DNA of 64,000 nt from a virus (IMGVR_UViG_3300042402_002564:66145-130144), one strand, 5' to 3'; counted from the first letter of the stretch, positions 11,295-62,997 are shown. The notes: generated by a model from the letters alone, not told the origin. A program made the numbers and translations.

Positions 11295-11346
11295 CCACCT
11301 GCACCACCCGTGCGGGTAAATTTTGCTGTATAATAATTTTATTGAC

Positions 11347-25427: not shown

Positions 25428-25599
25428 AAAAGATAGTTTAAGAGTAACTGAAGAAAAAGATGGTAGTTTTACCGTTGAATGGGACTCAGATGACCCAGCA
25501 TACTCTTGGTTAAGTACAAAAACAGAAGAGGAATTGACAGAAATTTTAACAGAGCAGATTGAAAATTATTTAAATCAACTTAAAAATAATGAGCGATAA
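25417..25599 (+). CDS. hypothetical small protein
   Basis: overlap-coupled ORF. Confidence 0.35.
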   Translation: MTNKKDSLRVTEEKDGSFTVEWDSDDPAYSWLSTKTEEELTEILTEQIENYLNQLKNNER

Positions 25600-25843
25600 A
25601 GTAATCAAATGGTCTTTACCTGTACAATATGATCCAGAATCTGGTGATTATTTTATCTCTTTTCCAGAAGATCTTTTACATGCTGCAAATTTAAAAGAAG
25701 GTGACCAAGTATTTTGGGTTGATAATGGCGACAAGACTTTTACAATAAAAAAAGTAAAAGAAGATGCACCAAAAACTTATCAGGATATGATTGCTGATGG
25801 GTGGGAAATGACTGTAGATGGATTCTGGATAAAGGAGAATTAA
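25589..25843 (+). CDS. hypothetical small protein
   Basis: overlap-coupled ORF. Confidence 0.35.
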   Translation: MSDKVIKWSLPVQYDPESGDYFISFPEDLLHAANLKEGDQVFWVDNGDKTFTIKKVKEDAPKTYQDMIADGWEMTVDGFWIKEN

Positions 25844-52218: not shown

Positions 52219-53184
52219 ATGAGTAAGACCTATACAGAGAGAATGCAGTATTTAAACCGAACTGGTTTGTTCAGTGGTATTACTCATGCCCTTTTAGAAG
52301 ATAAGGTTAGGAATAATTTTTATAGTGATATTTTAAAAAGTGCAAAAGGTAAACGTGTTGTTGATGTAGGTTCTGGGAGTGGACTCTTAGGATTCCTAGC
52401 ATTAAAGCACGGGGCAGAACATGTTACTTTTATAGAACAGGATAAGGTATCATCAAATCATATTATGAATGTGATTCGTAGGATGAAGATTGATGAATCA
52501 AAGTATCGTGTGATTAATGATGAATTTGTTGCAAGTCGTTGGGATGAATATGAACTCATTAATCCTGATATGATTGTACATGAAATTATTGGTAATTTTA
52601 TTTGGAATGAAACAATGACTTGTGCATTTGATGTTCATTTACCAAATGTAGAGATTATACCAAGTTCTTATCAATTAAAGTATAGTATTGTTCCACTTAC
52701 TGATGAAGGATTTAAATTCTTTTGTGATTATGAGAATAGGAATGCAAAGAATAAACCAGACCTTGATGTTGATTTAGTAGGGTCTGTATTTGTTGATTAT
52801 TATACAAAGGTCTTAAGTCTTTATAATACTGAGGTTAGTACAAAACCATCAATATTGAATCATATAAGAGATAAGGATATTTTAAATGATATCTATTCTA
52901 AGGCAATTCATCATTATGACCATGTAGTGAATATTAATGATGAGAATGACTTTAATCATAAAAGAAGAGTTAAATTCAAGTTACCTAAAACAAAACGTCC
53001 TTATTTAATTCTATGTGAACCATTTGTTCATCATGGTGAGTATACACTTGAGTTTAAGTCTACCTCATCATTTAATGGTTATAATCAACCTATCTTAGTT
53101 CCACCTAATTTAAAGTGTAAGTATTATGAATATGTTTTTGATATTCAACATACTTATACGAAGATAGATAATTATTATGCGTAA
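52219..53184 (+). CDS. class I SAM methyltransferase, PRMT-like
   Basis: motif I VVDVGSGSGLLGFLALKHGA, post-I TFIEQ, and IVHEIIGNFIWNE with E-x8-E spacing identical to the PRMT double-E loop. Confidence 0.55.
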   Translation: MSKTYTERMQYLNRTGLFSGITHALLEDKVRNNFYSDILKSAKGKRVVDVGSGSGLLGFLALKHGAEHVTFIEQDKVSSNHIMNVIRRMKIDESKYRVINDEFVASRWDEYELINPDMIVHEIIGNFIWNETMTCAFDVHLPNVEIIPSSYQLKYSIVPLTDEGFKFFCDYENRNAKNKPDLDVDLVGSVFVDYYTKVLSLYNTEVSTKPSILNHIRDKDILNDIYSKAIHHYDHVVNINDENDFNHKRRVKFKLPKTKRPYLILCEPFVHHGEYTLEFKSTSSFNGYNQPILVPPNLKCKYYEYVFDIQHTYTKIDNYYA

Positions 53185-53194
53185 GATGTTTTAA

Positions 53195-54160
53195 ATGGCA
53201 AAATATTCGGAACGAATGATTCATGAGAATCAAAGACCAAATGGTTATAATGGCATTTGTTTTGGTCTATTAGAAGATGCCGCAAGAAATAAGTTTTATG
53301 ATGAATCACTCAAAAGAGCAAAGGGTAAACGTGTTGTTGATGTAGGTTCTGGTAGTGGATTGTTAGGGTTTTTAGCATTAAAACACGGGGCAAAGCATGT
53401 TACTTTTATTGAGCAGAATATTGTATCTTATTCTCATATCAGAAGAGTATCTGAAATCATGAAGATTGATAAGTCCCGTTATCGTATCATTAATGATGAA
53501 TTTGTTGCAAGTCGTTGGGATGAATATGATTTAAAAAACCCCGATATGATTGTACATGAATTAGTTGGTAGTTATATTTGGAATGATACAATTGGACAAG
53601 CATTTAATCAGTTTATACCAAACGTAGAGATTATACCAAATTTATATGAATTAAAGTTTAGTATTATTCCTTTAAGCGAATCTGGTTTTAATTACCTTCG
53701 TAAGTATCAGAATGAGAAGTCTATTGAGAAGAGAAGATTCCTTGATGTACGTGTTCCTATTGATAAGAAGTTTATTGCTTATTATGAAAATGTTTTAAAT
53801 GATTATGATTATGAGATAGGTATCGTTCCTAGAATAATGAGGTCATTGCATGATGAGTTGTTTAATAAACTATACTCAAAGGATAGAATAGAGTATTATA
53901 CACATGTATTTGATATTAATAAAGAGAAGGATTATAAGAGTAATACTATTGCATCGTTTAATTTACCTAAGACAGATAATCCTTATTTAATCTTTATTCA
54001 TCCGTATCTTCACTCTAAGAAGAATACATTAGACTTTGTAGAGAGTACCTCTTTTAGTGGTCATCGTAAACCTATACTGATTCCACCTAAAGCGAATTGT
54101 AATAAGTTAAGGTATGATGTATTGAAGAATTATATGACGATTGATGATGTAAAAGTATAG
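53195..54160 (+). CDS. class I SAM methyltransferase, PRMT-like (tandem paralog)
   Basis: VVDVGSGSGLLGFLALKHGA, TFIEQ, IVHELVGSYIWND (E-x8-D). Confidence 0.55.
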   Translation: MAKYSERMIHENQRPNGYNGICFGLLEDAARNKFYDESLKRAKGKRVVDVGSGSGLLGFLALKHGAKHVTFIEQNIVSYSHIRRVSEIMKIDKSRYRIINDEFVASRWDEYDLKNPDMIVHELVGSYIWNDTIGQAFNQFIPNVEIIPNLYELKFSIIPLSESGFNYLRKYQNEKSIEKRRFLDVRVPIDKKFIAYYENVLNDYDYEIGIVPRIMRSLHDELFNKLYSKDRIEYYTHVFDINKEKDYKSNTIASFNLPKTDNPYLIFIHPYLHSKKNTLDFVESTSFSGHRKPILIPPKANCNKLRYDVLKNYMTIDDVKV

Positions 54161-54445
54161 TTTTTAATGTTTTTATATTAAAAAATGTATTAAAAAACAT
54201 ATATTAGTGTTTTTAATGTGGTATTATACTAGTGTTATATGGTAGTCTTATACTCTTATAATCTCTCTTATATCCATTATAATCGTGCCAGATCCTTTGA
54301 GTTTTATGCTTATTATACCTCTGGATCCTTGTGATCTTAGGCTGCGTATTATAGCACAACCGCGAAAAAATGTCAAGACCCCCGCTCCAAAAACATAAGG
54401 ACGCGGCATTTTACCATAAGACGCCCCGTGTGTCAACTCCCAGAA

Positions 54446-54688
54446 TCTCGACGAGAATACACGGTTATATCTCGACTAGATTACATCACGATATAACAGT
54501 ATCATTATATCTTATAATCTCGACGAGTATATCACATAAGATCTCGTCGAGTCATATTACAATATAACATTAGTATTATATCATACAATCTCGACGATAC
54601 ATTGTCACAGTATCATAACATAACTTCATAATTAGTCATAATTATCTCGACGAGTATCATATATACCATCAATAAGATCTCGACGAGA
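54446..54688 (+). repeat. cluster of 7 copies of the palindrome TCTCG(A/T)CGAGA in an AT-rich intergenic region
   Basis: copies start at 54446, 54470, 54518, 54543, 54589, 54645, 54678; arms TCTCG/CGAGA are perfect reverse complements. Confidence 0.7.
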
Positions 54689-54704
54689 TGTGCGTCAGAT
54701 TCCC

Positions 54705-54733
54705 TTGACAGGTCTTGCTGCATCATGTACAAT
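54705..54733 (+). promoter_or_regulatory. sigma70-consensus promoter
   Basis: TTGACA 54705-54710, 17-nt spacer, TACAAT 54728-54733. Confidence 0.55.
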
Positions 54734-54757
54734 GTACACAGTTCGCACAAAGTTCTC

Positions 54758-54928
54758 ATGGGTAACACCGCATTTATGGAAGCACAAAAGCATAAGTATC
54801 GCGTCACTCTAGAACTCGACGTTCTTGGTGACTTCGACCCCCATAATATTAATTGGGAGAAGCTCTTTGACCTTAATCCTACAGAGAGTGTGAAGTCTTA
54901 TGTGGAGGACTTGGACTATCCTTGGTAA
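54758..54928 (+). CDS. hypothetical small protein
   Basis: in-frame ATG downstream of the promoter. Confidence 0.35.
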   Translation: MGNTAFMEAQKHKYRVTLELDVLGDFDPHNINWEKLFDLNPTESVKSYVEDLDYPW

Positions 54929-55148
54929 CAGAATATTATACCATAAGGGCATCTAATGCGTCAAGTGCTGACGCACCCTTATGTGTATAAGTATTTCAAA
55001 GCTGGGGAAGTGACGATGTATTGTCGTCTGCAGGGATACCCTTCCCCTCTTCTGGTTGTCTGCAAATGATACATCAGAACGCCCGCAAAACCTGCATTGG
55101 GTGCCAGTTTGGTGAACCGTCCACCTGTGGCACAAAGACCCAGAAGAT
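54929..55148 (+). other. GC-rich intergenic region with nested hairpins (candidate structured RNA)
   Basis: ATAAGGG[GCGTCA-AGTGC-TGACGC]CCCTTAT nested stems; GGGGAAG[GACGA-TGTATTG-TCGTC]...CTTCCCC; GTGGCACA box at 55127. Confidence 0.35.
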
Positions 55149-55184
55149 GTGGTGTACAGTTGCTGGGCAAACGCAATTCGACCG

Positions 55185-55388
55185 ATGATTTTTTTGACAT
55201 CTACCAATCATGGTTGTGTGTATACTCTGTCTCAAGAGGACGGTGATGAGTTGTACTTTGCACCCATCTATGCAAACGGAACTATTAATCTGGAGGAGTT
55301 TGCTCCTGTGGATATGAGTACTGTTGACATGGATGACATGGAGGTGTATGATATCCGTAACCGACTGGTTGCCATGTCCAATATTTGA
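55185..55388 (+). CDS. hypothetical small protein
   Basis: ATG 55185; the track's GTG extension begins at 55149. Confidence 0.3.
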   Translation: MIFLTSTNHGCVYTLSQEDGDELYFAPIYANGTINLEEFAPVDMSTVDMDDMEVYDIRNRLVAMSNI

Positions 55389-55432
55389 ACTGGCACAAGG
55401 GGGTTGACAAGACCCCCACCATCGGTTAAATT
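55387..55432 (+). promoter_or_regulatory. GAACTGGCACA box + hairpin-embedded -35 promoter
   Basis: GAACTGGCACA 55387-55397; GGGGG-TTGACAAGA-CCCCC with TTGACA at 55404-55409; TAAATT at 55427-55432. Confidence 0.5.
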
Positions 55433-55458
55433 TAAATCGTTCACCACTCAACCAAACA

Positions 55459-55917
55459 ATGGGAACCCGCTCTCGCATCGGTTACGAACTTCCTGATCAC
55501 TCCGTGGTTAGTGTTTACTGCCACTGGGATGGTTATGTAGAGAACAACGGTCGCATTCTGGTAGAGCACTATCAGAACCGCGATGATGTACAAGAACTGA
55601 TTGATGGTGGTTCTATGTCTTCTCTTCGCACAACTCATCTGTGGGAGACTGCAGCAGTACGTGATGAGGATGGTAAGATTGTAGAGAACCCTGATGGTAG
55701 TTGGGTTATGTCTCCAACCCGCGATGCACAACCTCTTTATCACACTGAGCGTGGTGAAGATCTGAATGTGGATCACACTTCATTTGATAAGTTTGTATCA
55801 GGTGATTGGGGTGAGGATTATGCTTACCTGTACGACCTCAACGGTAACTGGAAAGCATATAAGATTGGGTGGGGACCTGTTGAGCGTGTGGACATCCCCA
55901 ACTACGTGACAGCGTAG
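55459..55917 (+). CDS. hypothetical protein (152 aa)
   Basis: ORF downstream of the promoter; GC-rich codon usage. Confidence 0.45.
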   Translation: MGTRSRIGYELPDHSVVSVYCHWDGYVENNGRILVEHYQNRDDVQELIDGGSMSSLRTTHLWETAAVRDEDGKIVENPDGSWVMSPTRDAQPLYHTERGEDLNVDHTSFDKFVSGDWGEDYAYLYDLNGNWKAYKIGWGPVERVDIPNYVTA

Positions 55918-55989
55918 GAACTGGCACACGGGTCCTGGGTCATGACCTAAAACTGACCTATACTTCTCTCAGTTCACACCACTCCGCTA

Positions 55990-56202
55990 ATGGCACTCTC
56001 AAATCAATCCATGAATAAAATTGCAAGTGCAATGGTTCAAGAGGTTGTTGAGGAACTTTATGAGTCCGATGAATGGATGGATTTCCTCTATACTAACATC
56101 GGTGGTATCATTGTTGGCAAACTTGGTCAAATTGATGATACTGTCCTGGCAGAATTGATTATGGGTGTTGCAGACCGTATTAGTCTCAAAGCACACACAT
56201 AA
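55990..56202 (+). CDS. hypothetical small protein
   Basis: ORF; GAACTGGCACA box upstream at 55918. Confidence 0.4.
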   Translation: MALSNQSMNKIASAMVQEVVEELYESDEWMDFLYTNIGGIIVGKLGQIDDTVLAELIMGVADRISLKAHT

Positions 56203-56280
56203 TCTCGACTAGATGCGTGTCACGTATCAAATCAATCTCGACGAGATACGTGACACATCATTTGACATCATCTCGATTAT
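56203..56280 (+). repeat. palindrome cluster (TCTCGACTAGA, TCTCGACGAGA, partial TCTCGATTA) flanked by the 12-bp inverted repeat GTGTCACGTATC/GATACGTGACAC
   Basis: copies at 56203 and 56236; inverted-repeat arms at 56215-56226 and 56244-56255. Confidence 0.6.
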
Positions 56281-56304
56281 ATGTTATCATATAATCAACC
56301 ACAT

Positions 56305-56388
56305 GGGGATGTGGTGGAATCGGTAGACACAACAGACTTAAAATCTGTCGGAGGCAACTCTGTGGGGGTTCAAGTCCCCCCGTCCCTA
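56305..56388 (+). tRNA. tRNA-Leu (TAA), type II
   Basis: acceptor GGGGATG/CGTCCCT (2 G-U pairs); anticodon arm ACAGA-CTTAAAA-TCTGT; long variable arm; T-arm GGGGG-TTCAAGT-CCCCC. Confidence 0.8.
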
Positions 56389-56448
56389 TTACCACTCTCA
56401 AGGTATATTATACCTGAGGTGGTCCAAACTCTTCTCCTAGAGGCACTC

Positions 56449-56589
56449 ATGCACGAATCCACGCTTGATTTGTTTTGCTCTCATGATAATGATAATTTGG
56501 ATATTGATGATGCTTTCATGTGTGCATTTGAGGAAGAAGCGTCTAAACTGGAAATCACAGTAGATTATTATATCGCAGAGTTCCTATAA
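56449..56589 (+). CDS. hypothetical small protein (46 aa)
   Basis: in-frame ATG after the tRNA; the upstream part of the track ORF is the tRNA read as protein. Confidence 0.25.
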   Translation: MHESTLDLFCSHDNDNLDIDDAFMCAFEEEASKLEITVDYYIAEFL

Positions 56590-56669
56590 TATAATGGGGA
56601 AGGTGTTTGCCCTAAAAGTTACACTGTTAGATATTAATATTCTATAAAACTAGTGGGTGGATATTATAC

Positions 56670-56699
56670 AGACCTGGGGTGGTGCCCAGGTCTTTTTTT
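56670..56699 (+). terminator. rho-independent terminator
   Basis: AGACCTGGG-GTGGTG-CCCAGGTCT then T7. Confidence 0.7.
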
Positions 56700-56716
56700 A
56701 TGTTTTGTAACAGACC

Positions 56717-56744
56717 TCGACAGGGGGTGCTGGTGTGGTATGAT
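56717..56744 (+). promoter_or_regulatory. promoter (TCGACA ... extended -10 TGGTATGAT), copy 1 of a duplicated promoter/leader
   Basis: GTGGTATGATTTGA and leader AGTCAACACGGGA recur at 56887-56900 and 61725-61737. Confidence 0.45.
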
Positions 56745-56769
56745 TTGAGAGTCAACACGGGAACCTCCC

Positions 56770-56901
56770 ATGTCTCTGGTTTGTGCCTCTGACCTTGCCA
56801 CCCGCCGCCTGGTGTGGGTGAAGAACAACACCGCCACTGGTGTGCCAGCTGCCGCACCGTCCGTCGTCTGGGCAGAGTTCGGTCGCCGTGGTATGATTTG
56901 A
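56770..56901 (+). CDS. hypothetical small protein (43 aa)
   Basis: ATG follows the conserved leader GAACCTCCC; its 3' end carries the next TGGTATGAT -10. Confidence 0.3.
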   Translation: MSLVCASDLATRRLVWVKNNTATGVPAAAPSVVWAEFGRRGMI

Positions 56902-56920
56902 TAGTTCGCAACCGAACCTC

Positions 56921-57112
56921 ATGACCGTCCGCACCAACGTCCTTCCCCTGGATCTCTGCACTGTCACCCTCACCGAGGCACAGTGGAGCACGATCCGAAC
57001 TGCTGTGCTCTGCCTCGCTTGTGATTGCCGCATCGCTGGCAAGACCACTGACGCAGACTACTATCTGAACGCCTACAACAACCTGAAGGCAGCGATGGGG
57101 ATGGACGCCTGA
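56921..57112 (+). CDS. hypothetical small Cys-containing protein
   Basis: ATG follows the second copy of the GAACCTC leader. Confidence 0.35.
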   Translation: MTVRTNVLPLDLCTVTLTEAQWSTIRTAVLCLACDCRIAGKTTDADYYLNAYNNLKAAMGMDA

Positions 57113-57116
57113 CCTA

Positions 57117-57160
57117 GTGGCACAGGGGGACTTGCAAAGGTCCCCCACACCCCCTACACT
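57117..57160 (+). promoter_or_regulatory. GTGGCACA box + hairpin-embedded -35 promoter
   Basis: GGGGGAC-TTGCAAAG-GTCCCCC hairpin; 17-nt spacer to TACACT at 57155-57160. Confidence 0.45.
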
Positions 57161-57184
57161 ACATTTGTTCATTCAAAAACACCA

Positions 57185-57649
57185 ATGCCAATCAATCTCA
57201 CCAAAGAAGACCTCAACTTCTACGAAGAAAACTATTCTAATGTCATGCAACTTGGCATGATTAACACCTTCGATGAGCGGAGTGATCGGATTCGCTTCCG
57301 TTCGATTGCAAAGGCAATTCAGGAGCAAATTGATTCTCTGCAAGTTGAGGATCAAAAGCGTGTTCCTTTTACAAAGGATGAGATTGTACCTGTTTTTGAA
57401 GAGTATCTGTGTTCTTATACTCTCAACGGTCAAGTGAAAGTTTTTGACCGCAAACTTGCTGCTTCTGGTATTCAATCGTTCCGAAAGAATCCTGTTGCTT
57501 CGGTGATGGGTATTCATGGTCAGATTGCATACTACGATCAATACAACGATGTTATCACCAAATCGTTTGATCGTGCTGGTAACACTCTGAAGGAGATGCT
57601 CCGCCAGTATAATGAAATGATGGGTGTTGAGCGGTTCGCCCTGGACTGA
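57185..57649 (+). CDS. hypothetical protein (154 aa)
   Basis: ORF downstream of the promoter. Confidence 0.45.
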   Translation: MPINLTKEDLNFYEENYSNVMQLGMINTFDERSDRIRFRSIAKAIQEQIDSLQVEDQKRVPFTKDEIVPVFEEYLCSYTLNGQVKVFDRKLAASGIQSFRKNPVASVMGIHGQIAYYDQYNDVITKSFDRAGNTLKEMLRQYNEMMGVERFALD

Positions 57650-57727
57650 TTAACAACCCTTATGGGTCAGGGGGTTGACTCCTGACCCATTCCATCCCAT
57701 ACTGTCTTTGTTCACCACTTGAACCTC

Positions 57728-57868
57728 ATGCCCGAAATCACCTGGATTAACGACATTCCGATGCCCACAATGTGGGAAGAAGATTATCAAGAAACAGAGT
57801 ATAAAGATTACGAGGAATCTGATTGGTATAATGACCCTAACTGTGTCATGTCCCGCCATCATTATTGA
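57728..57868 (+). CDS. hypothetical small protein (46 aa)
   Basis: read from the sequence; follows the GAACCTC leader; promoter TTGACT-N17-CATACT at 57679-57707 lies in a GGGTCAGG/CCTGACCC hairpin. Confidence 0.3.
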   Translation: MPEITWINDIPMPTMWEEDYQETEYKDYEESDWYNDPNCVMSRHHY

Positions 57869-57871
57869 ACA

Positions 57872-58006
57872 ATGATTGAAGTTCTTGCCGCTTACGTTGT
57901 CGGAATGATGCAGGTTGCACCTAATCTCATTCAGACAGATTACCTCAACGAAGACAAGCAAATCATTTCCGTCACTGAAGTAATCCAAGAGGTTCCACAA
58001 TCATGA
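57872..58006 (+). CDS. hypothetical small protein (44 aa)
   Basis: starts 3 nt after the upstream stop. Confidence 0.3.
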   Translation: MIEVLAAYVVGMMQVAPNLIQTDYLNEDKQIISVTEVIQEVPQS

Positions 58007-58149
58007 CACTCACACACCTCAACTATCAAGAGATTGATGCCCTGATGGCAATTCTTGAGAGTAGTGATTGGCATTATCTGACTGAACTTGTGGATGCAGA
58101 CATTCCGCTTCTGTATGACAAACTCACCGAAATGAGGGATGAACTGTGA
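58003..58149 (+). CDS. hypothetical small protein (48 aa)
   Basis: ATGA overlap. Confidence 0.3.
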   Translation: MTLTHLNYQEIDALMAILESSDWHYLTELVDADIPLLYDKLTEMRDEL

Positions 58150-58313
58150 CTGAAACTCTCCGACAGTATCACTTCACTGACGAACAGATTGACTTCCTGA
58201 TGCGAATTGTGCGGAACAATGCACAATTTGAAGATGGTGAAGACCGTGAGTTCATGGAAGAACTTGCCAATCAAATTGAAGATCAAATCGTCAACCATCC
58301 TGACAACGACTGA
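58146..58313 (+). CDS. hypothetical small protein (55 aa, GTG start)
   Basis: GTGACTGAA start overlapping the upstream TGA. Confidence 0.3.
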   Translation: MTETLRQYHFTDEQIDFLMRIVRNNAQFEDGEDREFMEELANQIEDQIVNHPDND

Positions 58314-58513
58314 TGACACCTAACGCACCCTACGGTTGCCAAACCTATAAAGATCTGCTGGTCATGTTACAATCTATGACAGCAGAGCAGTTGGACTGCA
58401 CTCCTACGGTGTATGATCCTGATGCGGATGAGTATTATCCTATCACCACACTTCTCACCGCATCTGACACCAACGACGTGTTAGACTCTGATCATCCCTA
58501 CCTCTCCTTCTGA
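58313..58513 (+). CDS. hypothetical small protein
   Basis: track ORF; TGATG overlap. Confidence 0.35.
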   Translation: MTPNAPYGCQTYKDLLVMLQSMTAEQLDCTPTVYDPDADEYYPITTLLTASDTNDVLDSDHPYLSF

Positions 58514-58689
58514 TGAACCGTTCTGAACTGCAAGACCAACTCATTCAGCAGATGTTGGATGACATGGATCTCAAGACAATGACCCAACTCTGTTATGATT
58601 ATCTGGATGAGGGTTATGGTAAGTATTCTGATGAGGAATTGATCACTGAATGTGAAGAATACTACCCCGATTTGCTTGAAAATCAATAA
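58513..58689 (+). CDS. hypothetical small acidic protein (58 aa)
   Basis: TGATG overlap; read from the sequence. Confidence 0.3.
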   Translation: MNRSELQDQLIQQMLDDMDLKTMTQLCYDYLDEGYGKYSDEELITECEEYYPDLLENQ

Positions 58690-58778
58690 AGTATAAATTA
58701 TTACAGGATGGGTTGGTATCCTGATTGTCACCGATACCATAAAACTCTACAGAGTCTTTCCCGTCCTACCCAATCCCT

Positions 58779-58824
58779 GAACTGGCACAGACCCCTTGAC
58801 AGGGTGCCAGGAATCGCTTAATCT
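58779..58824 (+). promoter_or_regulatory. GAACTGGCACA box + sigma70-like promoter
   Basis: GAACTGGCACA 58779-58789; TTGACA 58796-58801 flanked by ACCCC/GGGT; TAATCT at 58819-58824. Confidence 0.5.
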
Positions 58825-58894
58825 AAGAAAACAAGCGGGGGTGAAGCATCCCGCTCAAAACACTTCACTCAAACCCTTACAATGTGATTTAATT

Positions 58895-59122
58895 ATGTCT
58901 CAGTTCGCTTTTACTTCTTCCGCCATCGAAAGCATCTCTGATGTGAATGATGGTAAAGTGACTATCACCTTCAACGGTGGTCGTGAGTATACCTACGGTG
59001 TGCAAGATGTTGAGATGTTCGTGTCTCAACTGAGCACCGTGATTGCCGAACAGCAGTCCGTGGGTCGTTTTGTAAATAATGCTATCAAAACGGAACAACT
59101 GCTCGCAGTGACCGCCGCCTGA
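58895..59122 (+). CDS. hypothetical small protein
   Basis: ATG 58895 downstream of the promoter. Confidence 0.4.
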   Translation: MSQFAFTSSAIESISDVNDGKVTITFNGGREYTYGVQDVEMFVSQLSTVIAEQQSVGRFVNNAIKTEQLLAVTAA

Positions 59123-59175
59123 TAGTATAATACGGGGGGAGGCAACTCCTCCCATCACACTACTCCCAAAGAACA

Positions 59176-59340
59176 ATGACTGATTACTTCGACCCTAACG
59201 AACAGTTTTCAATCCTTGATCTTATTGATGATTCACAACCTTATGAAGATTTCTCTCCTGAGGTTAGACAAATGCTTAACGAAGTTGAGTATTACGATGA
59301 CTACTCTTATGGGGTAGAAGTCGATAATGATTACGACTAA
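59176..59340 (+). CDS. hypothetical small acidic protein (54 aa)
   Basis: ATGACTGA start context; read from the sequence. Confidence 0.35.
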   Translation: MTDYFDPNEQFSILDLIDDSQPYEDFSPEVRQMLNEVEYYDDYSYGVEVDNDYD

Positions 59341-59398
59341 TCTCGACTAGTTAATCATCATAATCTCGTCGAGATCACGTCATTAAATCTCGACGAGA
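59341..59398 (+). repeat. palindrome cluster (TCTCGACTAG, TCTCGTCGAGA, TCTCGACGAGA)
   Basis: copies at 59341, 59365, 59388, directly after the 59176 ORF stop. Confidence 0.6.
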
Positions 59399-59434
59399 TA
59401 CGCACACAAATCACTTGAAATTCTTCTCTTTAAC

Positions 59435-59569
59435 ATGGAAAATCGTTCGCTCCTGCTTTCGCTTCTTCGTAAAGGTCAAACTGGTGAAGAAATTCTCCAG
59501 ATTCTGGAAACTATCATTGGCAGCGATGATGATAGTGATGGTCCTACCCTAAACCCCATCGATTTCTGA
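59435..59569 (+). CDS. hypothetical small protein (44 aa)
   Basis: read from the sequence. Confidence 0.3.
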   Translation: MENRSLLLSLLRKGQTGEEILQILETIIGSDDDSDGPTLNPIDF

Positions 59570-59573
59570 TACA

Positions 59574-59762
59574 ATGGAAACTGCATTTGTGACACCCGTA
59601 TCTAAGAAAGCAAAAAACCGTTTTGCTAATCTTATGGGTGGACTTGATGAGTGTATTGTAGAACAACACAAAGGAGACAAAGTGTTCCTCACAAGTGCAA
59701 ACGGTAAAAACCATTTCTGGGTTAACATTAACAAAGATCCAGACTGGATTGTAGAGTTCTAA
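59574..59762 (+). CDS. small protein, paralog of 12759..12953
   Basis: shared C-terminal HFWVNINKDPDWIVE block. Confidence 0.45.
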   Translation: METAFVTPVSKKAKNRFANLMGGLDECIVEQHKGDKVFLTSANGKNHFWVNINKDPDWIVEF

Positions 59763-59773
59763 GATTATACCAT

Positions 59774-59799
59774 CCCCCGCCAAGTGCGGGGGTTTTTTT
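59774..59799 (+). terminator. rho-independent terminator
   Basis: CCCCCGC-CAAGT-GCGGGGG then T7. Confidence 0.7.
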
Positions 59800-59975
59800 A
59801 TACTTTATAGTATGCTTCCCACCCCTCCCGCCCTCTAGCGTAGGGGCGATGCCCCCCTGAAGTCAACCCCTGAGCCATAAGCATTTCTGATGCAACCCAT
59901 AAGCGAGACTGATAGGAAAACCCGTTGCAGGGTGCCGCCGATGCTGTAGGATTCTGGCAACGCCAACCCACCCCC

Positions 59976-60590
59976 ATGGCACACACCGACTCCATCATCG
60001 CCACCTATTTCCAGAGCAACACTCTGGATCGCCAGACTGGTGCCCAATGGTATAACAACGCTTATGGCGTTTGTGTTACTTTGGGTGAAAAGTATGGTGT
60101 CCATTCTGACATCGTTGCAGGTGTTATCGCTGCACTTTCTCCTAACAACAAATGGGAGAGAAATGTAGAGGATGCTGAGGCAATGATCAAAGCATGGGCA
60201 TACGAAATCTCCTATGATTCGGTTGCAGTTTGTTCCTACTCTGCCAACAAAGACAAGGCACAAACTATTCTCGATTTGCAACTTAATCGTGAGCAGATTG
60301 TTAAAGTTTTGCGTGGCAACAAAACTATTGCTTTCTTCCTTTGTATTGCTAACAATGGTGATAGCGATTCTCCCTGCATTGATGGTCACGCTTACAACAT
60401 TTGGAACGGAACTGTAACTAACCTGAAAGAGGTTCCTTCTATGTCAGACAAGACTTTCCGCATGATTCAAGATGCCTACCGTGACGCCGCTAAGTTAATC
60501 TCTGAGGTGACGGGTTTGCATTATTCAGCGGCACAAGTGCAAGCGATCACCTGGGTTACGTATCGCAGGATACACAAAAACCTAGTGTGA
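59976..60590 (+). CDS. hypothetical protein (~205 aa)
   Basis: ATG 59976 downstream of the CTGTAGGAT promoter at 59944; perfect hairpin GGGGCATCG-CTGG-CGATGCCCC at 60603-60624 follows the stop. Confidence 0.45.
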   Translation: MAHTDSIIATYFQSNTLDRQTGAQWYNNAYGVCVTLGEKYGVHSDIVAGVIAALSPNNKWERNVEDAEAMIKAWAYEISYDSVAVCSYSANKDKAQTILDLQLNREQIVKVLRGNKTIAFFLCIANNGDSDSPCIDGHAYNIWNGTVTNLKEVPSMSDKTFRMIQDAYRDAAKLISEVTGLHYSAAQVQAITWVTYRRIHKNLV

Positions 60591-60628
60591 CGGATTGTTA
60601 CAGGGGCATCGCTGGCGATGCCCCCCAT

Positions 60629-60670
60629 GCTGTAGGATACTCTCAAGCGGGGCAAACGGACCCCGCACAA
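60629..60670 (+). repeat. 42-nt promoter/leader repeat, copy 1 (CTGTAGGATACTCTCAAGCGGGGCAAACGGACCCCGCACAA)
   Basis: near-identical copy at 61358-61399; contains hairpin GCGGGG-CAAACGGA-CCCCGC. Confidence 0.55.
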
Positions 60671-60683
60671 TCGGAAACCCGAA

Positions 60684-60854
60684 ATGTTCACTTCCTGGTC
60701 TGCTGCTCCTAAAGGCACTGGCATGGATCACCTGGAATTTTTCACCAGTGAAGAACACGCCGTAGATGTTGCCTACGATTGGAGTATTGAACTCGGTGGC
60801 AAACCCATTGTAATCTACTGTAACGAACAGGAATGGATGGAAATCACCGCCTGA
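60684..60854 (+). CDS. hypothetical small protein (56 aa)
   Basis: read from the sequence; downstream of repeat copy 1; GNRA hairpin AGGGGGA-GAAA-TCCCCCT at 60867-60884 follows. Confidence 0.3.
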   Translation: MFTSWSAAPKGTGMDHLEFFTSEEHAVDVAYDWSIELGGKPIVIYCNEQEWMEITA

Positions 60855-60905
60855 TTTGAAACACTTAGGGGGAGAAATCCCCCTCCCATTCTTCACTCTG
60901 AAACA

Positions 60906-61076
60906 ATGAAATTCGGTGCAATTGGTGTAACGATTCGCTACCAAACTCCCTACAATTCTTGTGAATGGAGAGAGCAAACGTTTGCTACAATTGATGAGGC
61001 AAACCGCATGGTAGATTTCTATCGTTCCTGTGGTTCTCCCGCTGAGGTTGTTACTTTCCGTGAGGCACAAAAATGA
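60906..61076 (+). CDS. hypothetical small protein (56 aa)
   Basis: read from the sequence. Confidence 0.3.
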   Translation: MKFGAIGVTIRYQTPYNSCEWREQTFATIDEANRMVDFYRSCGSPAEVVTFREAQK

Positions 61077-61183
61077 AAACATTTGCCCTCATTTTTGCGG
61101 TTATGTTTTTAATGTCTCCAGCAGTTAGAAACACTACCGCGAACACTTTACACACCGCTGCCACCATCATTTCAGCAGAATGA
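61073..61183 (+). CDS. hypothetical very small protein with signal-peptide-like N-terminus (36 aa)
   Basis: ATGA overlap; MKTFALIFAVMFLMSPA. Confidence 0.25.
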   Translation: MKTFALIFAVMFLMSPAVRNTTANTLHTAATIISAE

Positions 61184-61347
61184 CACACTATCCCTCCCGC
61201 CTTCGTTTCAAACTACCTGCCGAAAGAATCGCTGAGCTGGTAGAAAAGAATTGCACCGTCCTAAGTGATAGTGAATGGATGCAATTTTTTGAAGAAATCA
61301 ACATTATTTCGGATTGTAACGAAACGCCCGAACTGGTCACCCCCTGA
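61180..61347 (+). CDS. hypothetical small protein (55 aa)
   Basis: ATGA overlap. Confidence 0.3.
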   Translation: MTHYPSRLRFKLPAERIAELVEKNCTVLSDSEWMQFFEEINIISDCNETPELVTP

Positions 61348-61357
61348 CCCCCCTGAC

Positions 61358-61399
61358 CCTGTAGGATACTCTCAAGCGAGGCAAACGGACCTCGCCCAA
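61358..61399 (+). repeat. 42-nt promoter/leader repeat, copy 2
   Basis: CTGTAGGATACTCTCAAGCGAGGCAAACGGACCTCGCCCAA; preceded by tandem CCCCTGACC x2 and AACTGGTCAC. Confidence 0.55.
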
Positions 61400-61413
61400 C
61401 CCACACCAGACCG

Positions 61414-61674
61414 ATGCTCGCATCCATCATCCGCACCGCCATCCGCACCCGCCTGATCAACGATGGCCCCCAGACCTGCTCCGACCTTGTGCGGGCAATG
61501 GGTTTGGATCCTCGCCGTCACAAGGGCACCATCCACGCCCTTATGGTCGATCTGGAAAAGGCAGGCACCCTGTCCGCCACCCGTTCCGATAATGGCAAGC
61601 GGGATCTGTGGTTTGTGAACTTTGAGCAAATCCGCAAGCGGGACCGCATCATCGCCGCCCTCTCTGGAGTGTGA
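61414..61674 (+). CDS. winged-helix (wHTH) DNA-binding regulator-like protein
   Basis: 86 aa; TCSDLVRAMGLD...IHALMVDLEKAGTL recognition-helix-like pattern; GC ~60%; hairpin GGGGGCAC-GATAGG-GTGCCCCC at 61687-61708 follows. Confidence 0.45.
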   Translation: MLASIIRTAIRTRLINDGPQTCSDLVRAMGLDPRRHKGTIHALMVDLEKAGTLSATRSDNGKRDLWFVNFEQIRKRDRIIAALSGV

Positions 61675-61746
61675 ACGATTGTTAACGGGGGCACGATAGG
61701 GTGCCCCCACCCTGTAGAATTTAAAAGTCAACACGGGACACACCCC

Positions 61747-61986
61747 ATGACCGCCTACGCTTTCACCGACCGCCAGCAGATTGACGAAAATCCTAAAGTC
61801 GATTTCGTCGATACTGTTACCGTCAACCTGAAAGTTTCGCCCCGCGAACTTAAGTTAATGTGTGATGCGTTGATTGAATCTGACCGCTATATGTGTCAGG
61901 AAGGCAAACTACAATCGGCAGATCTCCGCCGATGGGATGCAATCCTCGATTATATTAAGGATCGGGCATTCAACGACGCTTACTGA
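61747..61986 (+). CDS. hypothetical small protein
   Basis: follows TAGAAT (61715-61720) and the AGTCAACACGGGA leader; GNRA hairpin GGGGGGA-GAAA-TCCCCCC at 61994-62011 follows. Confidence 0.4.
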   Translation: MTAYAFTDRQQIDENPKVDFVDTVTVNLKVSPRELKLMCDALIESDRYMCQEGKLQSADLRRWDAILDYIKDRAFNDAY

Positions 61987-62036
61987 TACAATCGGGGGGA
62001 GAAATCCCCCCTTCTCAAACCACCTCACCTAGAACC

Positions 62037-62363
62037 ATGTTCCCCACCGTTCTTCTCAACAATCCGATGATTGAAAAGTATAACGAACTGCGTCAGGAAG
62101 TTCTTTCTAACGACACTGTGCAGCAGGTTCTTTATACTCTCGCCACCGTGCTAGGTGTTATCGTTGGTGTCACCCTTTGGTGTTACAAACGCATTGCACA
62201 ATGGTATAACGAAGGTGGCAAAGATTCTTTCTACTTTGGTATCAACACCAGGGCAGGAAAGGATGATGAACAGTTCGGCATTGGTATATTCAAACTCTAC
62301 GTGGGTTTGTATAACAATGTCCTACACATTGGGTTCACAGATCACAATGGGTGCCTGCCCTAA
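62037..62363 (+). CDS. hypothetical membrane protein
   Basis: one clear TM helix (TLATVLGVIVGVTLWCY). Confidence 0.4.
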   Translation: MFPTVLLNNPMIEKYNELRQEVLSNDTVQQVLYTLATVLGVIVGVTLWCYKRIAQWYNEGGKDSFYFGINTRAGKDDEQFGIGIFKLYVGLYNNVLHIGFTDHNGCLP

Positions 62364-62597
62364 GTGACACTTATGGGGTGCTGAGTTCTTTATACTTAGC
62401 ACCCCTACATTCGTGCGTAAGTGTAAATGTGACAGTCTGTGACAGACAGTTGACGGTATAACGGTATCGTGATAACGGCGGGCCGTGCCCCCTACCCCCC
62501 CCTTAGCTAAAATTGATGACTCCCCTAACCTACAGAGGTGACAAAACGAGTGAGTGATTTCATGTTCATAAGAAAAAATTTTACAGAAAAATTTCGC

Positions 62598-62760
62598 CTC
62601 ATAAGGTCGATAAAAACCCTCACAAGGGTCTCCGAGAATCCTCACATAAGTATCCGTATGCAACTAAAGTATGTTATAATGTGTCTCCGAGAGTCTCTAT
62701 GGATTCTCATATCACACGCCCTTAAAAATTTTTCGAGGGGTCTCAAAGGGGTGATATATA
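62598..62760 (+). promoter_or_regulatory. AT-rich regulatory region with CCTCAYAAGG x3, GTCTCCGAGA x2 and a TATAAT
   Basis: repeats at 62598, 62618, 62641; GGTCTCCGAGA 62627 and GTGTCTCCGAGAG 62681; TATAAT 62675-62680. Confidence 0.4.
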
Positions 62761-62784
62761 GTGATGTAATGAGAAGGTGGTGAG

Positions 62785-62949
62785 ATGGACGACAAAATCT
62801 ATCACATTTATAACAAAGAGAATCAGTGTGTATCTCCATGTTTATCTGAGGAAGAATTCAGTGATACATGGAAAGAACTCACAGAAGATTCTTATGAATA
62901 TGAAGAACTCGAAGCTTCTTATTCAAAGCAAGAGGAAGCGTCTTATTGA
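62785..62949 (+). CDS. hypothetical small acidic protein (54 aa)
   Basis: read from the sequence. Confidence 0.3.
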   Translation: MDDKIYHIYNKENQCVSPCLSEEEFSDTWKELTEDSYEYEELEASYSKQEEASY

Positions 62950-62997
62950 CAACTTCCAAATAAAACGATAAAATTGATCTGAAGGTACTTTAAACTT

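What the first reader, a model, noticed from the sequence alone, without database searches (positions are those of the whole stretch)
54446..54688. Clustered palindromic 11-13-mer TCTCG(A/T)CGAGA, 7 copies in 240 bp, recurring at two further sites
The motif has perfect 5-bp arms around a central A/T. It occurs 7 times in the AT-rich gap between the methyltransferase paralogs and the GC-rich island (54446-54688), 2-3 times at 56203-56277 (there nested in a 12-bp inverted repeat GTGTCACGTATC/GATACGTGACAC just upstream of tRNA-Leu), and 3 times at 59341-59398. Spacing is irregular (24-56 bp), so it is not a CRISPR array. It looks like an iteron/operator array for a sequence-specific DNA-binding protein, an origin, or a homing/recombination site family. 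A wHTH regulator-like gene sits in the same island (61414-61674).
Basis: seen in the sequence. Interest (0 to 1): 0.65.

Follow-up and report, generated by a model that had tools for sequence, protein, structure and literature searches.

The report
Palindromic operator-like repeats in cyanophage
A 13-base palindrome (ATCTCG-A/T-CGAGAT) is repeated twelve and a half times at three gene boundaries of a T4-like cyanophage; it most likely marks binding sites for an unidentified protein that controls early promoters, and I found no published description of it although the model phage P-SSM2 carries it.

Summary
TCTCGWCGAGA occurs 5 times exactly and 11 times with at most 1 mismatch (0.5 expected). 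All copies lie in three intergenic clusters: 54445-54689, 56202-56282 and 59340-59399. The full motif is the 13-mer ATCTCG(A/T)CGAGAT.

The window is a freshwater T4-like cyanomyovirus. The big array fills the gap between divergent consensus sigma-70 promoters, at the start of a GC-richer island of small early-type genes.

The same arrays occur at the syntenic place in isolates S-SRM01, S-T4 and P-SSM2 and in dozens of uncultured contigs. They are absent from Bellamy, S-SM2, S-B05 and P-TIM68 and from most close relatives. In the complete S-SRM01 genome the motif is confined to three clusters within 5.4 kb.

The two half-sites vary independently and symmetrically, with no compensatory changes. 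This argues for reading on duplex DNA by a dimer rather than for a hairpin. In relatives the motif is fused to the -35 or -10 elements of promoters, the position of a repressor operator.

Best explanation (about 0.45): operator-like protein-binding sites built into PeSL-like regulatory cassettes. The binding protein is not identified. Rivals are recombination linkers, origin iterons and an RNA element. New variant of a known kind; moderate interest.

The parts
54445..54457 (+). site 1, ATCTCGACGAGAA (1 mismatch); centre lies 15 bp upstream of the -35 of the leftward promoter
54469..54481 (+). site 2, ATCTCGACTAGAT (CTAG half-site variant)
54517..54529 (+). site 3, ATCTCGACGAGTA
54541..54553 (+). 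site 4, ATCTCGTCGAGTC (T centre; the centre is A in near-identical contig L339)
54588..54600 (+). site 5, ATCTCGACGATAC
54644..54656 (+). site 6, ATCTCGACGAGTA
54677..54689 (+). site 7, perfect ATCTCGACGAGAT; centre lies 22 bp upstream of the -35 at 54705
54408..54436 (-). leftward sigma-70-type promoter TTGACA-17-TAAAAT (11 of 12 matches, TG before the -10)
54348..54376 (-). leftward consensus promoter TTGACA-17-TATAAT (12 of 12); conserved in relatives with and without the motif
54705..54733 (+). rightward promoter TTGACA-17-TACAAT (11 of 12), opening the early-gene island
54161..54444 (.). non-coding hub left of the array: AT-rich block (25% GC in 54161-54340), TTATAAG-type repeats and the two leftward promoters; origin-like in relatives
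54758..54928 (+). first gene after the array (phrog_12516). The ORF-list start at 54725 overlaps the -10, so the real start is probably the ATG at 54758
56202..56214 (+). site 8, ATCTCGACTAGAT; overlaps the TAA stop of gene 55990-56202
56235..56247 (+). site 9, perfect; centre lies 21 bp upstream of the -35 at 56262; overlaps the 3' arm of the 12-bp inverted repeat
56217..56256 (+). 12-bp inverted repeat GTGTCACGTATC / GATACGTGACAC enclosing site 9 (folds to -22.7 kcal/mol, z -3.4)
56262..56290 (+). promoter TTGACA-17-TATCAT ahead of tRNA-Leu; its spacer contains the half-site ATCTCGAT (56270-56277)
56304..56389 (+). tRNA-Leu(UAA). The same pairing of motif cluster and tRNA occurs in L007 (tRNA-Leu) and L076 (tRNA-Met followed by tRNA-Leu)
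59340..59352 (+). site 10, ATCTCGACTAGTT; overlaps the TAA stop of ORF 59176-59340
59363..59375 (+). site 11, perfect with T centre; homology to the closest relative L133 resumes exactly here
59387..59399 (+). site 12, perfect; 36 bp upstream of the ATG at 59435; no credible promoter in between
61414..61674 (+). candidate binder only: small basic winged-helix protein (AlphaFold2 pLDDT 79.6; matches MarR, PadR and Z-alpha folds)
25589..25843 (+). candidate binder only: AbrB/MazE-like protein (PF04014, E=5e-5, 23.6 bits, just under the 24.7 cut-off)

Best explanation
The 13-bp palindromes are recognition sites on double-stranded DNA for a dimeric sequence-specific protein. They act as operators and are built into the intergenic regulatory cassettes of a mobile, GC-richer early-gene island found in a subgroup of T4-like cyanophages.

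In this window:
- seven sites fill the 245 bp between two leftward and one rightward consensus sigma-70 promoters;
- two and a half sites sit at the tRNA-Leu promoter, with the half-site inside its -35/-10 spacer;
- three sites lie between two small genes.

Occupancy of the sites, probably cooperative along an array, would time or shut off host-RNA-polymerase transcription from this hub.

Shown: the sites, their clustering, their conservation across phages, their symmetric degeneracy, and their fixed geometry relative to promoters in relatives.

Inferred: that a protein binds them, that the effect is repression, and that the shared sites also serve as recombination linkers between cassettes. 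The binding protein is not identified.
For: - Enrichment far above chance, confined to three intergenic clusters.
- The same arrays sit at the syntenic locus in S-SRM01, S-T4 and P-SSM2 and in about 85 uncultured loci of ~40% GC. Flanking positions carry almost no information, while motif positions carry 0.9-2.4 bits.
- 67% of 527 copies lie outside any ORF of at least 60 aa.
- In the complete S-SRM01 genome, all 11 clustered copies lie within 85,569-90,995.
- Half-site variants ATCTAG and CTAGAT occur at similar rates and independently: CG 144, AG 39, CT 28, AT 10 against 8.4 expected. Adjacent copies show no covariation. A single motif folds to only -2.1 kcal/mol. Together these favour duplex reading over a hairpin.
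- Promoter geometry in relatives is sharp. The -35 hexamer starts 4-6 nt before motif position 1 at 25 sites, so the motif fills the spacer; this occurs in 18 of 56 large arrays. A second peak of 9 sites has the -10 fused to a half-site.
- In the window, full sites are centred 21-22 bp upstream of the -35 at 54705 and 56262, and a half-site lies in the 56262 spacer.
- Site spacings cluster near 24, 32-33, 42-43, 51-53 and 62-65 bp.
- Small DNA-binding-fold genes occur only in motif-bearing loci: an AbrB-like 58-aa gene in 27 of 35 against 0 of 26, and the winged-helix gene in 10 of 85 against 0 of 51.
Against: - No candidate protein covers all motif-bearing lineages. The window lineage lacks the 58-aa AbrB-like gene. 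The winged-helix gene was not found in the S-SRM01 genome or in the P-SSM2 and S-T4 stretches searched.
- That AbrB-like family is very acidic and matches Pfam only weakly. S-CAM7 has the gene but no motif within 12 kb on either side.
- The gene associations may only reflect a shared island gene pool.
- Cluster 59340-59399 and several clusters in relatives have no promoter and lie between co-oriented genes.
- Sites are polar with respect to genes. The left outer AT is kept in 76% of copies against 41% for the right, and the first copy abuts the upstream stop codon. A symmetric operator does not need either property.
- The 10-bp periodicity is only marginal after related spacers are collapsed (p about 0.02-0.05).
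- In the window the full sites lie upstream of the promoters, not over them.
Confidence: 0.45

Rival explanations
1. The repeats are PeSL-type linkers with no dedicated binding protein. They are shared intergenic 'punctuation' whose main role is to supply homology for the phage recombination machinery, so that gene cassettes are exchanged and shuffled. Neighbouring copies may also pair into stem-loops that attenuate read-through transcription.
For: - The first copy begins 0-4 nt after, and often overlaps, the stop codon of many unrelated upstream genes; the last copy lies just before the next start codon or tRNA.
- Sites are co-oriented with genes.
- Copy number ranges from 2 to 9.
- Presence is patchy among close relatives: 4 of 80.
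- The motif-bearing region is a GC-richer island in both the window and S-SRM01.
- Compared with the closest relative L133, the window has an extra cassette (59107-59362) whose right border is a motif copy.
- Contigs of relatives often end in this region.
- True PeSL-like elements (a stop-codon hairpin plus GGGGG-TTGACA-CCCCC) lie in the same island.
- PeSLs are defined and shown to recombine in PMC2839356.
- Adjacent copies can form 12-13 bp stems (-21 to -23 kcal/mol).
Against: - 13 bp is very short for homologous recombination.
- A second indel against L133 (57994-58819) has no motif at its borders.
- Arrays are identical in five independent assemblies, so no rapid copy-number change is seen.
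- A linker does not need to be a palindrome with symmetric half-site degeneracy, nor to sit at a fixed register with -35 and -10 elements.
- No covariation supports the stems between copies, and no T-run follows them.
Confidence: 0.25
2. The big array is the iteron set of the phage replication origin, and the two smaller clusters are auxiliary control sites of the incA/incC type. An initiator binds the palindromes next to the AT-rich region, and the leftward promoter supplies activating or primer transcription, as in lambda ori or T4 oriF/oriG.
For: - The array adjoins a conserved non-coding hub: consensus promoters firing into a block of 25% GC.
- In relatives the same hub carries DnaA boxes (TTWTCCACA; 0.8 per kb against 0.074 per kb in the background) or ATTCTCAAT inverted repeats, about 10-fold enriched.
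- The motif is confined to one ~5 kb region of a 241-kb genome.
- From general knowledge: lambda iterons have dyad symmetry and lie inside a gene. Here the distal copies in relatives lie inside a small ORF.
Against: - The hub exists without the motif in Bellamy and S-SM2, so the motif is not needed for whatever the hub does.
- The window has no DnaA box.
- Spacing is irregular, and no initiator gene was found.
- Cumulative GC skew in S-SRM01 is monotonic, with no turning point at the locus.
- Small clusters sit at ordinary gene junctions.
Confidence: 0.12
3. The element acts in RNA. Transcribed copies fold, alone or in pairs, into hairpins that serve as processing, stabilising or translational-control signals in polycistronic early mRNAs and tRNA precursors.
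For: - Copies are co-oriented with transcription and lie in intercistronic spacers and tRNA 5' leaders.
- Cluster regions fold better than shuffles (z -3.4 to -4.3).
- CA-rich leaders and ATCTAGAT lie next to start codons in relatives.
Against: - Single variants that break the pair are common (30%) and show no compensation within a copy or between copies.
- The variants are transversions with no G-U pattern.
- A single hairpin is only -2.1 kcal/mol.
- The big array lies upstream of all three promoters around it, so much of it may not be transcribed.
- No Rfam family matches.
Confidence: 0.08
4. The palindromes are targets or decoys for a nuclease, such as a homing endonuclease, a restriction enzyme or a host defence system.
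For: - GIY-YIG endonuclease genes lie next to the hub in 26 of 85 motif-bearing loci and in 0 of 51 motif-free loci.
- An HNH gene abuts the third cluster in S-SRM01.
- The motif is a short palindrome containing TCGA.
Against: - The window, S-SRM01 (at the hub) and P-SSM2 have no endonuclease gene next to the arrays.
- From general knowledge, homing endonucleases recognise long asymmetric sites, not tandem 13-mers.
- Arrays are conserved rather than avoided.
Confidence: 0.05

Closest known systems
PeSL (promoter-early stem-loop) mobile regulatory cassettes of T4-type phages (Arbiol, Comeau, Kutateladze, Adamia, Krisch 2010; PMC2839356)
   Same: - Both are intergenic elements running from a stop codon to the next start, in regions of small non-essential genes of T4-type phages.
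- Both combine sigma-70-like early promoters with a dyad-symmetric element placed between, over or upstream of the -35 and -10 boxes.
- Both are associated with cassette indels.
- The authors themselves speculated that a DNA-binding protein recognises the dyad.
   Different: - The dyad here is a specific 13-bp sequence with a weak hairpin (-2.1 kcal/mol), not a stable GGGG/CCCC stem.
- It occurs in tandem arrays of 2-9 copies.
- It sometimes occurs with no promoter.
- It is confined to one ~5 kb region rather than spread through the hyperplastic region.
- Terminator activity and mini-circles were not tested.
Lambdoid operators OL/OR (general knowledge)
   Same: - Imperfect palindromes in groups of three or more.
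- About 24 bp centre to centre for several pairs.
- Located at divergent promoters.
- Repeated at sites a few kb apart.
- Overlap -35, spacer or -10 elements in relatives.
   Different: - 13 bp rather than 17 bp.
- Up to 9 sites with irregular spacing.
- No adjacent repressor gene identified.
- The phage is of a strictly lytic type (T4-like).
Iteron origins (lambda ori, P1 incC/incA, plasmid iterons) and T4 oriF/oriG (general knowledge)
   Same: - A repeat array next to an AT-rich region and a promoter.
- DnaA boxes in relatives.
- Extra clusters 2-5 kb away, resembling control loci.
- Copies inside a coding sequence in relatives, as in lambda gene O.
   Different: - No initiator gene.
- Irregular spacing.
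- The hub exists without the motif in related phages.
- No replication evidence.
Repeat arrays bound by small ribbon-helix-helix or AbrB-fold proteins (omega of pSM19035, ParR/parC, MetJ boxes, MraZ; general knowledge)
   Same: Arrays of short sites upstream of and over promoters, bound cooperatively by very small dimeric proteins that are hard to detect by sequence. AbrB/MazE-like small genes are enriched in motif-bearing loci.
   Different: In those systems the sites are contiguous 7-11 bp units. Here, 13-bp palindromes are separated by 8-50 bp of unconserved spacer. No partition genes were seen.
REP/BIME extragenic palindromes (general knowledge)
   Same: Imperfect palindromes clustered just after stop codons and oriented relative to genes.
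   Different: REPs are 20-40 nt, occur in hundreds of copies genome-wide, and are associated with RAYT transposases. Here there are 12 copies in one region, and no tyrosine transposase was noted among the gene products examined.

Membership tests
PeSL regulatory cassette | Intergenic element, from stop codon to next start, in a plastic region of a T4-type phage | tested here: met
   The window is a Kyanoviridae-type phage. The clusters begin at stop codons and end before the next gene or tRNA.
PeSL regulatory cassette | Contains a strong sigma-70-like early promoter | tested here: inconclusive
   Consensus-like promoters lie at 54705 and 56262. None is credible at cluster 59340-59399. All are sequence matches only; no activity data.
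PeSL regulatory cassette | Stable stem-loop acting as a terminator or attenuator | tested here: inconclusive
   A single motif folds to -2.1 kcal/mol. Pairs of copies form 12-13 bp stems of -21 to -23 kcal/mol. There is no covariation and no T-run.
PeSL regulatory cassette | Recombination between elements creates indels or mini-circles | tested here: inconclusive
   One cassette indel against L133 ends at a motif copy; another does not. Mini-circles cannot be tested with these tools.
Repressor-operator system (lambda-like) | Dyad-symmetric sites read on duplex DNA | tested here: met
   Symmetric, independent half-site variants with no compensatory changes.
Repressor-operator system (lambda-like) | Sites overlap core promoter elements | tested here: inconclusive
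   Met in relatives: the -35 is fused to the motif at 25 sites and the -10 at 9 sites. In the window only the half-site at 56270 lies in a spacer; full sites are centred about 50-57 bp upstream of the inferred transcription starts.
Repressor-operator system (lambda-like) | Cognate DNA-binding protein encoded by the phage | tested here: inconclusive
   Winged-helix protein 61414-61674 and AbrB-like proteins are candidates. None is present in all motif-bearing lineages.
Iteron-type replication origin | Regularly spaced direct repeats of about 17-22 bp | tested here: not met
   The repeats are 13-bp palindromes at 24-56 bp spacing in the window and 13-117 bp in relatives.
Iteron-type replication origin | Adjacent AT-rich unwinding region and DnaA boxes | tested here: inconclusive
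   An AT-rich block is present (25% GC). DnaA boxes are enriched in relatives but absent in the window.
Iteron-type replication origin | Initiator (Rep) gene next to the iterons | tested here: not met
   No Rep, helicase-loader or primase family was found among the island products with Pfam or PHROGs.
CRISPR array | Repeats of 23-50 bp with regular spacers of similar length, often next to cas genes | tested here: not met
   The repeat is 13 bp with spacers of 8-43 bp, and Pfam found no Cas family among the 40 window products scanned.
REP/BIME elements | Many copies dispersed genome-wide | tested here: not met
   There are no copies at 1 mismatch or fewer outside the three clusters in 64 kb. 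In S-SRM01 all clustered copies lie within 5.4 kb of a 241-kb genome.
Known RNA family (Rfam) | Match to a curated covariance model | tested here: not met
   Only the tRNA passes. The other hits are far below the gathering scores.

The most novel reading that the evidence does not exclude
The arrays and the conserved non-coding hub beside them (divergent consensus promoters, DnaA boxes or inverted repeats, AT-rich block) are the long-sought origin-plus-early-switch region of T4-like cyanophages. The 13-bp palindrome would then be the operator or iteron of a so far unrecognised small DNA-binding protein that travels with a mobile early-gene island between marine and freshwater phages. This would make early-gene shut-off and replication initiation in cyanomyoviruses, which lack MotA and AsiA according to my own knowledge, directly testable in P-SSM2.
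Probability: 0.2. Interest if true: 0.75.

Novelty: new variant of a known kind. Interest (0 to 1): 0.55.

Why it matters
T4-like cyanophages are among the most abundant viruses in oceans and lakes. How they control their early genes and start replication is largely unknown. To my knowledge they lack the T4 regulators MotA and AsiA, and only a skew-based origin prediction exists, for Syn9 (PMC2984593).

This motif gives a concrete, sequence-defined handle. It sits at a conserved divergent-promoter hub. It is fused to promoter elements in many phages. It is present in the cultured model phages P-SSM2, S-T4 and S-SRM01, so binding, transcription and replication tests are feasible now.

It also marks a GC-richer, patchily distributed early-gene island shared by marine and freshwater phages. 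That bears on how cassettes move between phage genomes.

I found no mention of the motif in the held literature.

Tried and rejected
- **Close DNA relatives among deposited phages:** none for the array region.
- **T7-like or N4-like phage-polymerase promoter:** considered because of an IMG/VR contig of 47,325 bp and the DUF7178 gene shared with podoviruses. Rejected because that contig is 64% GC, a chance match.
- **High-GC matches:** viral loci above 50% GC were set aside as presumed chance matches because they hold few copies. In the bacterial genome scan every one of the 80 listed hits is a single match, mostly in high-GC actinobacteria, with no arrays.
- **The array as a protein-coding repeat:** true for the 3' copies in relatives, where a small acidic ORF reads GAT CTC GAC GAG as DLDE. 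In the window all three frames are interrupted and no homolog exists.
- **RNA or ssDNA hairpin:** no covariation within or between copies.
- **Rfam:** nothing.
- **GC skew as an origin signal:** monotonic.
- **Helical phasing:** clear in the raw counts but only marginal after related spacers are collapsed.
- **phrog_12516, the first gene after the array, as binder:** it is also present in motif-free phages, and the window copy resembles the motif-free type.
- **Autoregulatory motif at the winged-helix gene:** none.
- **Copy-number polymorphism among near-identical strains:** none.
- **Syn9 transcriptome paper (Doron 2016):** not held.
- **S-CAM7:** has the AbrB-like gene but no motif within 12 kb on either side.

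Full report
**Observation.** The 11-mer TCTCGWCGAGA occurs 5 times exactly in the 64-kb window, against 0.01 expected. With one mismatch allowed it occurs 11 times, against 0.52 expected; no shuffle reached 11. Every copy lies in one of three places: 54445-54689 (seven copies), 56202-56282 (two copies and a half-site) and 59340-59399 (three copies). The conserved unit is the 13-mer ATCTCG(A/T)CGAGAT. ATCTCG[AT]C occurs 12 times on the + strand, only in the clusters. The minor corrections are that only four copies are perfect 13-mers and that the copy at 56270 is a half-site.

**What the window is.** The gene content is that of a T4-like cyanomyovirus: a tail-fibre-like giant protein, RNA ligases, a carbamoyltransferase, 2OG-Fe(II) oxygenases and two tandem PF03602 methyltransferases. 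Gene 62998-63765 is 88% identical in protein to Synechococcus phages Bellamy and S-SM2, where it lies just upstream of the baseplate genes. A 2.3-kb stretch holding the big array and the second cluster (54101-56420) recurs at 100% identity in a JGI metagenome contig and in four NCBI metagenome assemblies. The region 54690-62997 is 45.7% GC against 33.7% upstream. It consists of small + strand genes of unknown function.

**Local anatomy.**
- The big array fills the space between divergent promoters. On the - strand these are TTGACA-17-TAAAAT (54436 to 54408) and a perfect TTGACA-17-TATAAT (54376 to 54348). On the + strand it is TTGACA-17-TACAAT (54705-54733).
- To the left lies a non-coding stretch that is 25% GC in 54161-54340.
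- The array has stop codons in all three frames.
- The second cluster starts on the TAA stop of gene 55990-56202. It ends in a TTGACA-17-TATCAT promoter whose spacer holds the half-site, just before tRNA-Leu.
- The third cluster starts on the TAA stop of ORF 59176-59340 and ends 36 bp before the next ATG. The only promoter-like match there would place its -10 inside that ORF, so it is not credible.
- At 54705 and 56262, a full site is centred 21-22 bp upstream of the -35.

**Relatives.**
- A pattern scan of viral contigs returned more than 120 loci. They fall into two classes: high-GC loci with few copies (chance matches) and loci of about 40% GC with up to 17 copies.
- In 542 distinct copies the flanks carry almost no information, while the motif positions do. 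Positions 8-10, which were not part of the search seed, read G (or T in 21%), A (96%) and G (86%).
- 67% of 527 copies lie outside any ORF of at least 60 aa.
- Three cultured phages carry the arrays at the syntenic locus: S-SRM01 (freshwater), S-T4 and P-SSM2.
- Bellamy, S-SM2, S-B05 and P-TIM68 have the homologous first gene but not the motif, and Bellamy and S-SM2 also keep the conserved leftward promoter.
- Of the 80 contigs closest to the window by the 62998 gene, only four have clusters.
- In the complete S-SRM01 genome (240,842 bp), the 11 clustered copies all lie in 85,569-90,995. They form three clusters, as in the window. That region is also GC-richer there (0.41-0.45 against 0.356).
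- A scan of bacterial and archaeal genomes gave only single matches, mostly in high-GC organisms.

**DNA or RNA?** The common variants are ATCTAG in the left half and its mirror CTAGAT in the right half, at similar rates. The combinations are those expected from independence: CG 144, AG 39, CT 28, AT 10 against 8.4 expected. Adjacent copies do not covary at the centre or at the variant positions. One motif folds to only -2.1 kcal/mol. Neighbouring copies can pair into 12-13 bp stems, but that holds for any repeated palindrome. No Rfam family matches. This pattern fits a dimer reading two equivalent half-sites on duplex DNA and does not fit a selected hairpin.

Two features are not explained by a symmetric site. 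In gene orientation the left outer AT is kept in 76% of copies against 41% for the right. The first copy of a cluster also abuts or overlaps the stop codon of many unrelated upstream genes.

**Relation to promoters.** Across about 480 distinct sites, promoter-like pairs show a sharp preferred register. The -35 hexamer starts 5 nt before motif position 1 (25 sites at offsets -6 to -4), giving TTGACATCTCGWCGAG...TATAAT with the motif filling the spacer. This occurs in 18 of 56 large arrays. A second peak (9 sites) has the -10 fused to a half-site. Examples are in L006, L052, L062, L086, S-SRM01 and P-SSM2. These are classical operator positions. Site-to-site distances peak at 24, 32-33, 42-43, 51-53 and 62-65 bp. 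The roughly 10-bp periodicity is only marginal once related spacers are collapsed.

**Who binds?** An association test compared ORF families in 85 motif-bearing and 51 motif-free loci. The top hits were a small acidic ORF that overlaps the arrays (71/0), an AbrB/MazE-like 58-aa protein (26/0) and a GIY-YIG endonuclease (26/0).
- The AbrB-like gene sits immediately upstream of the 62998 homolog in 27 of 35 motif-bearing loci and in 0 of 26 motif-free loci. It corresponds to S-SRM01 QPX48150 ('DNA-binding domain-containing protein') and P-SSM2 PSSM2_102.
- The window lineage lacks that gene. The family is very acidic with weak Pfam support. S-CAM7 has it without nearby motifs.
- The window has a different AbrB/MazE-like ORF at 25589-25843 (PF04014, E=5e-5).
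Its AlphaFold2 model (pLDDT 79.6) has a winged-helix topology and matches MarR, PadR, Z-alpha and TFE winged helices.
- That gene occurs in 10 of 85 motif-bearing and 0 of 51 motif-free loci. It was not found in the S-SRM01 genome or in the P-SSM2 and S-T4 stretches searched, and it has no motif at its own promoter.

No single candidate covers all lineages. The associations may simply reflect a shared island gene pool.

**Cassette behaviour.** The island also contains true PeSL-like elements. One is a gene end inside a hairpin (GTGNCAG...CTGGCAC). It is followed by GGGGG-TTGACA-CCCCC (55375-55440), as described for T4-type phages in PMC2839356. Compared with the closest relative contig, the window has an extra unit at 59107-59362: a PeSL-like leader, ORF 59176-59340 and one motif copy. 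Homology resumes exactly at the next motif copy. Another indel has no motif at its borders. Arrays are identical in five assemblies; the only change in a sixth is the centre base of copy 4.

**Origin question.** Left of the big arrays, relatives carry lineage-specific tandem repeats. Next come either DnaA boxes (about 11-fold enriched) or ATTCTCAAT inverted repeats (about 10-fold enriched), and then a conserved AT-rich block. This resembles an origin with a promoter firing into it. Against that reading, the hub exists without the motif in Bellamy and S-SM2, the window has no DnaA box, no initiator gene was found, and GC skew is uninformative.

**Verdict.** The best-supported reading (about 0.45) is operator-like protein-binding sites built into PeSL-like regulatory cassettes at a divergent early-promoter hub. 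A probable secondary role is as recombination linkers; as the sole role, that model rates about 0.25. Origin iterons (0.12), an RNA element (0.08) and a nuclease target (0.05) are less likely, and chance is excluded. I found no description of the motif in the held literature. It is a new variant of a known kind and is testable in P-SSM2, S-T4 and S-SRM01.

Noticed in passing
window 54161-54444; L001 ~10980-11300; L002 ~10720-11030; about 45 IMG/VR loci: A conserved non-coding hub lies left of the array. A leftward consensus promoter fires into lineage-variable tandem repeats (TTATAAG-type in the window) and a conserved AT-rich block. Relatives add DnaA boxes (TTTTCCACA; 0.8 per kb against 0.074 per kb in the background) or ATTCTCAAT/ATTGAGAAT inverted repeats. 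It looks like a replication origin or a small leftward RNA gene, and it is also present in phages without the palindrome.
   Followed up: partly
L125 5843-5980 (S-SRM01 85,650-85,787); L212 11879-12034 (P-SSM2 PSSM2_098); L062; L086: In most relatives (71 of 85 loci) the last 3-4 motif copies lie inside a conserved small acidic Asp/Tyr-rich ORF (MYDDYDLDYT...DLDEDYARDGQDYESLAYRHYA). There the motif is read as Asp-Leu-Asp-Glu. All five differences between S-SRM01 and L086 in the C-terminal stretch I compared by eye are synonymous. The ORF has its own promoter with the motif in the spacer. The window lacks this ORF.
   Followed up: partly
window 55375-55440, 55905-55990, 59107-59175: A second type of intergenic cassette resembles the PeSLs of T4-type phages. 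The stop codon is embedded in a hairpin (GTGNCAG..stop..CTGGCAC), followed by a G-run/C-run stem around a TTGACA promoter. In relatives these hairpins are interleaved with the palindrome copies.
   Followed up: partly
window 54690-62997; S-SRM01 86-93 kb: The motif-bearing region is a compositional island in both phages: 45.7% against 33.7% GC here, and 0.41-0.45 against 0.356 in S-SRM01, with near-zero GC skew. Its small genes are shared patchily among marine and freshwater phages.
   Followed up: partly
window 61414-61674: Small basic protein with 347 close homologs in metagenomes. It is predicted to be a winged helix with a C-terminal helix (pLDDT 79.6). It has no Pfam family, and some JGI records call it a transcriptional regulator.
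   Followed up: yes
window 25589-25843: An 84-aa ORF with an AbrB/MazE (SpoVT-AbrB) domain, just under the Pfam cut-off. It is 57% identical to the C-terminal part of S-SRM01 QPX48095, which is annotated as an AbrB/MazE/SpoVT DNA-binding protein.
   Followed up: partly
L007, L029, L030, L033, L064, L100 and others (left of the hub): GIY-YIG homing-endonuclease genes are inserted beside the hub and transcribed leftward. They occur in 26 of 85 motif-bearing loci and in no motif-free locus. S-SRM01 has an HNH gene abutting its third cluster.
   Followed up: no
window 56304-56389; L007 13641-13725; L076 2920-3119; L050; L023: tRNA-Leu(UAA), sometimes with tRNA-Met, recurs in this island. In the window, L007 and L076 it is directly preceded by a motif cluster, and the last copy lies only 6-26 nt from the tRNA 5' end.
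   Followed up: partly
window 54725-54928: The ORF-list start (ATG at 54725) overlaps the -10 box of the 54705 promoter. The real start of this conserved first gene (phrog_12516) is probably the ATG at 54758.
   Followed up: no
window 59107-59362 vs L133 1037-1054: There is a cassette insertion relative to the closest relative contig: a leader, ORF 59176-59340 (Asp/Tyr-rich C-terminus YYDDYSYGVEVDNDYD) and one motif copy. A four-gene block at 57994-58819 is also absent from L133.
   Followed up: partly
L132-L211, L335-L338: Many metagenomic contigs of relatives start or end within a few kb of this region. Several start 390-590 bp upstream of the first island gene. This suggests that assemblies break at the repeats or at the hypervariable island.
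   Followed up: no
window 52219-53184 and 53195-54160: Two tandem 321-aa paralogs with a PF03602 (RsmD-like methyltransferase) domain lie directly upstream of the hub. No link to the TCGA-containing motif was tested.
   Followed up: no
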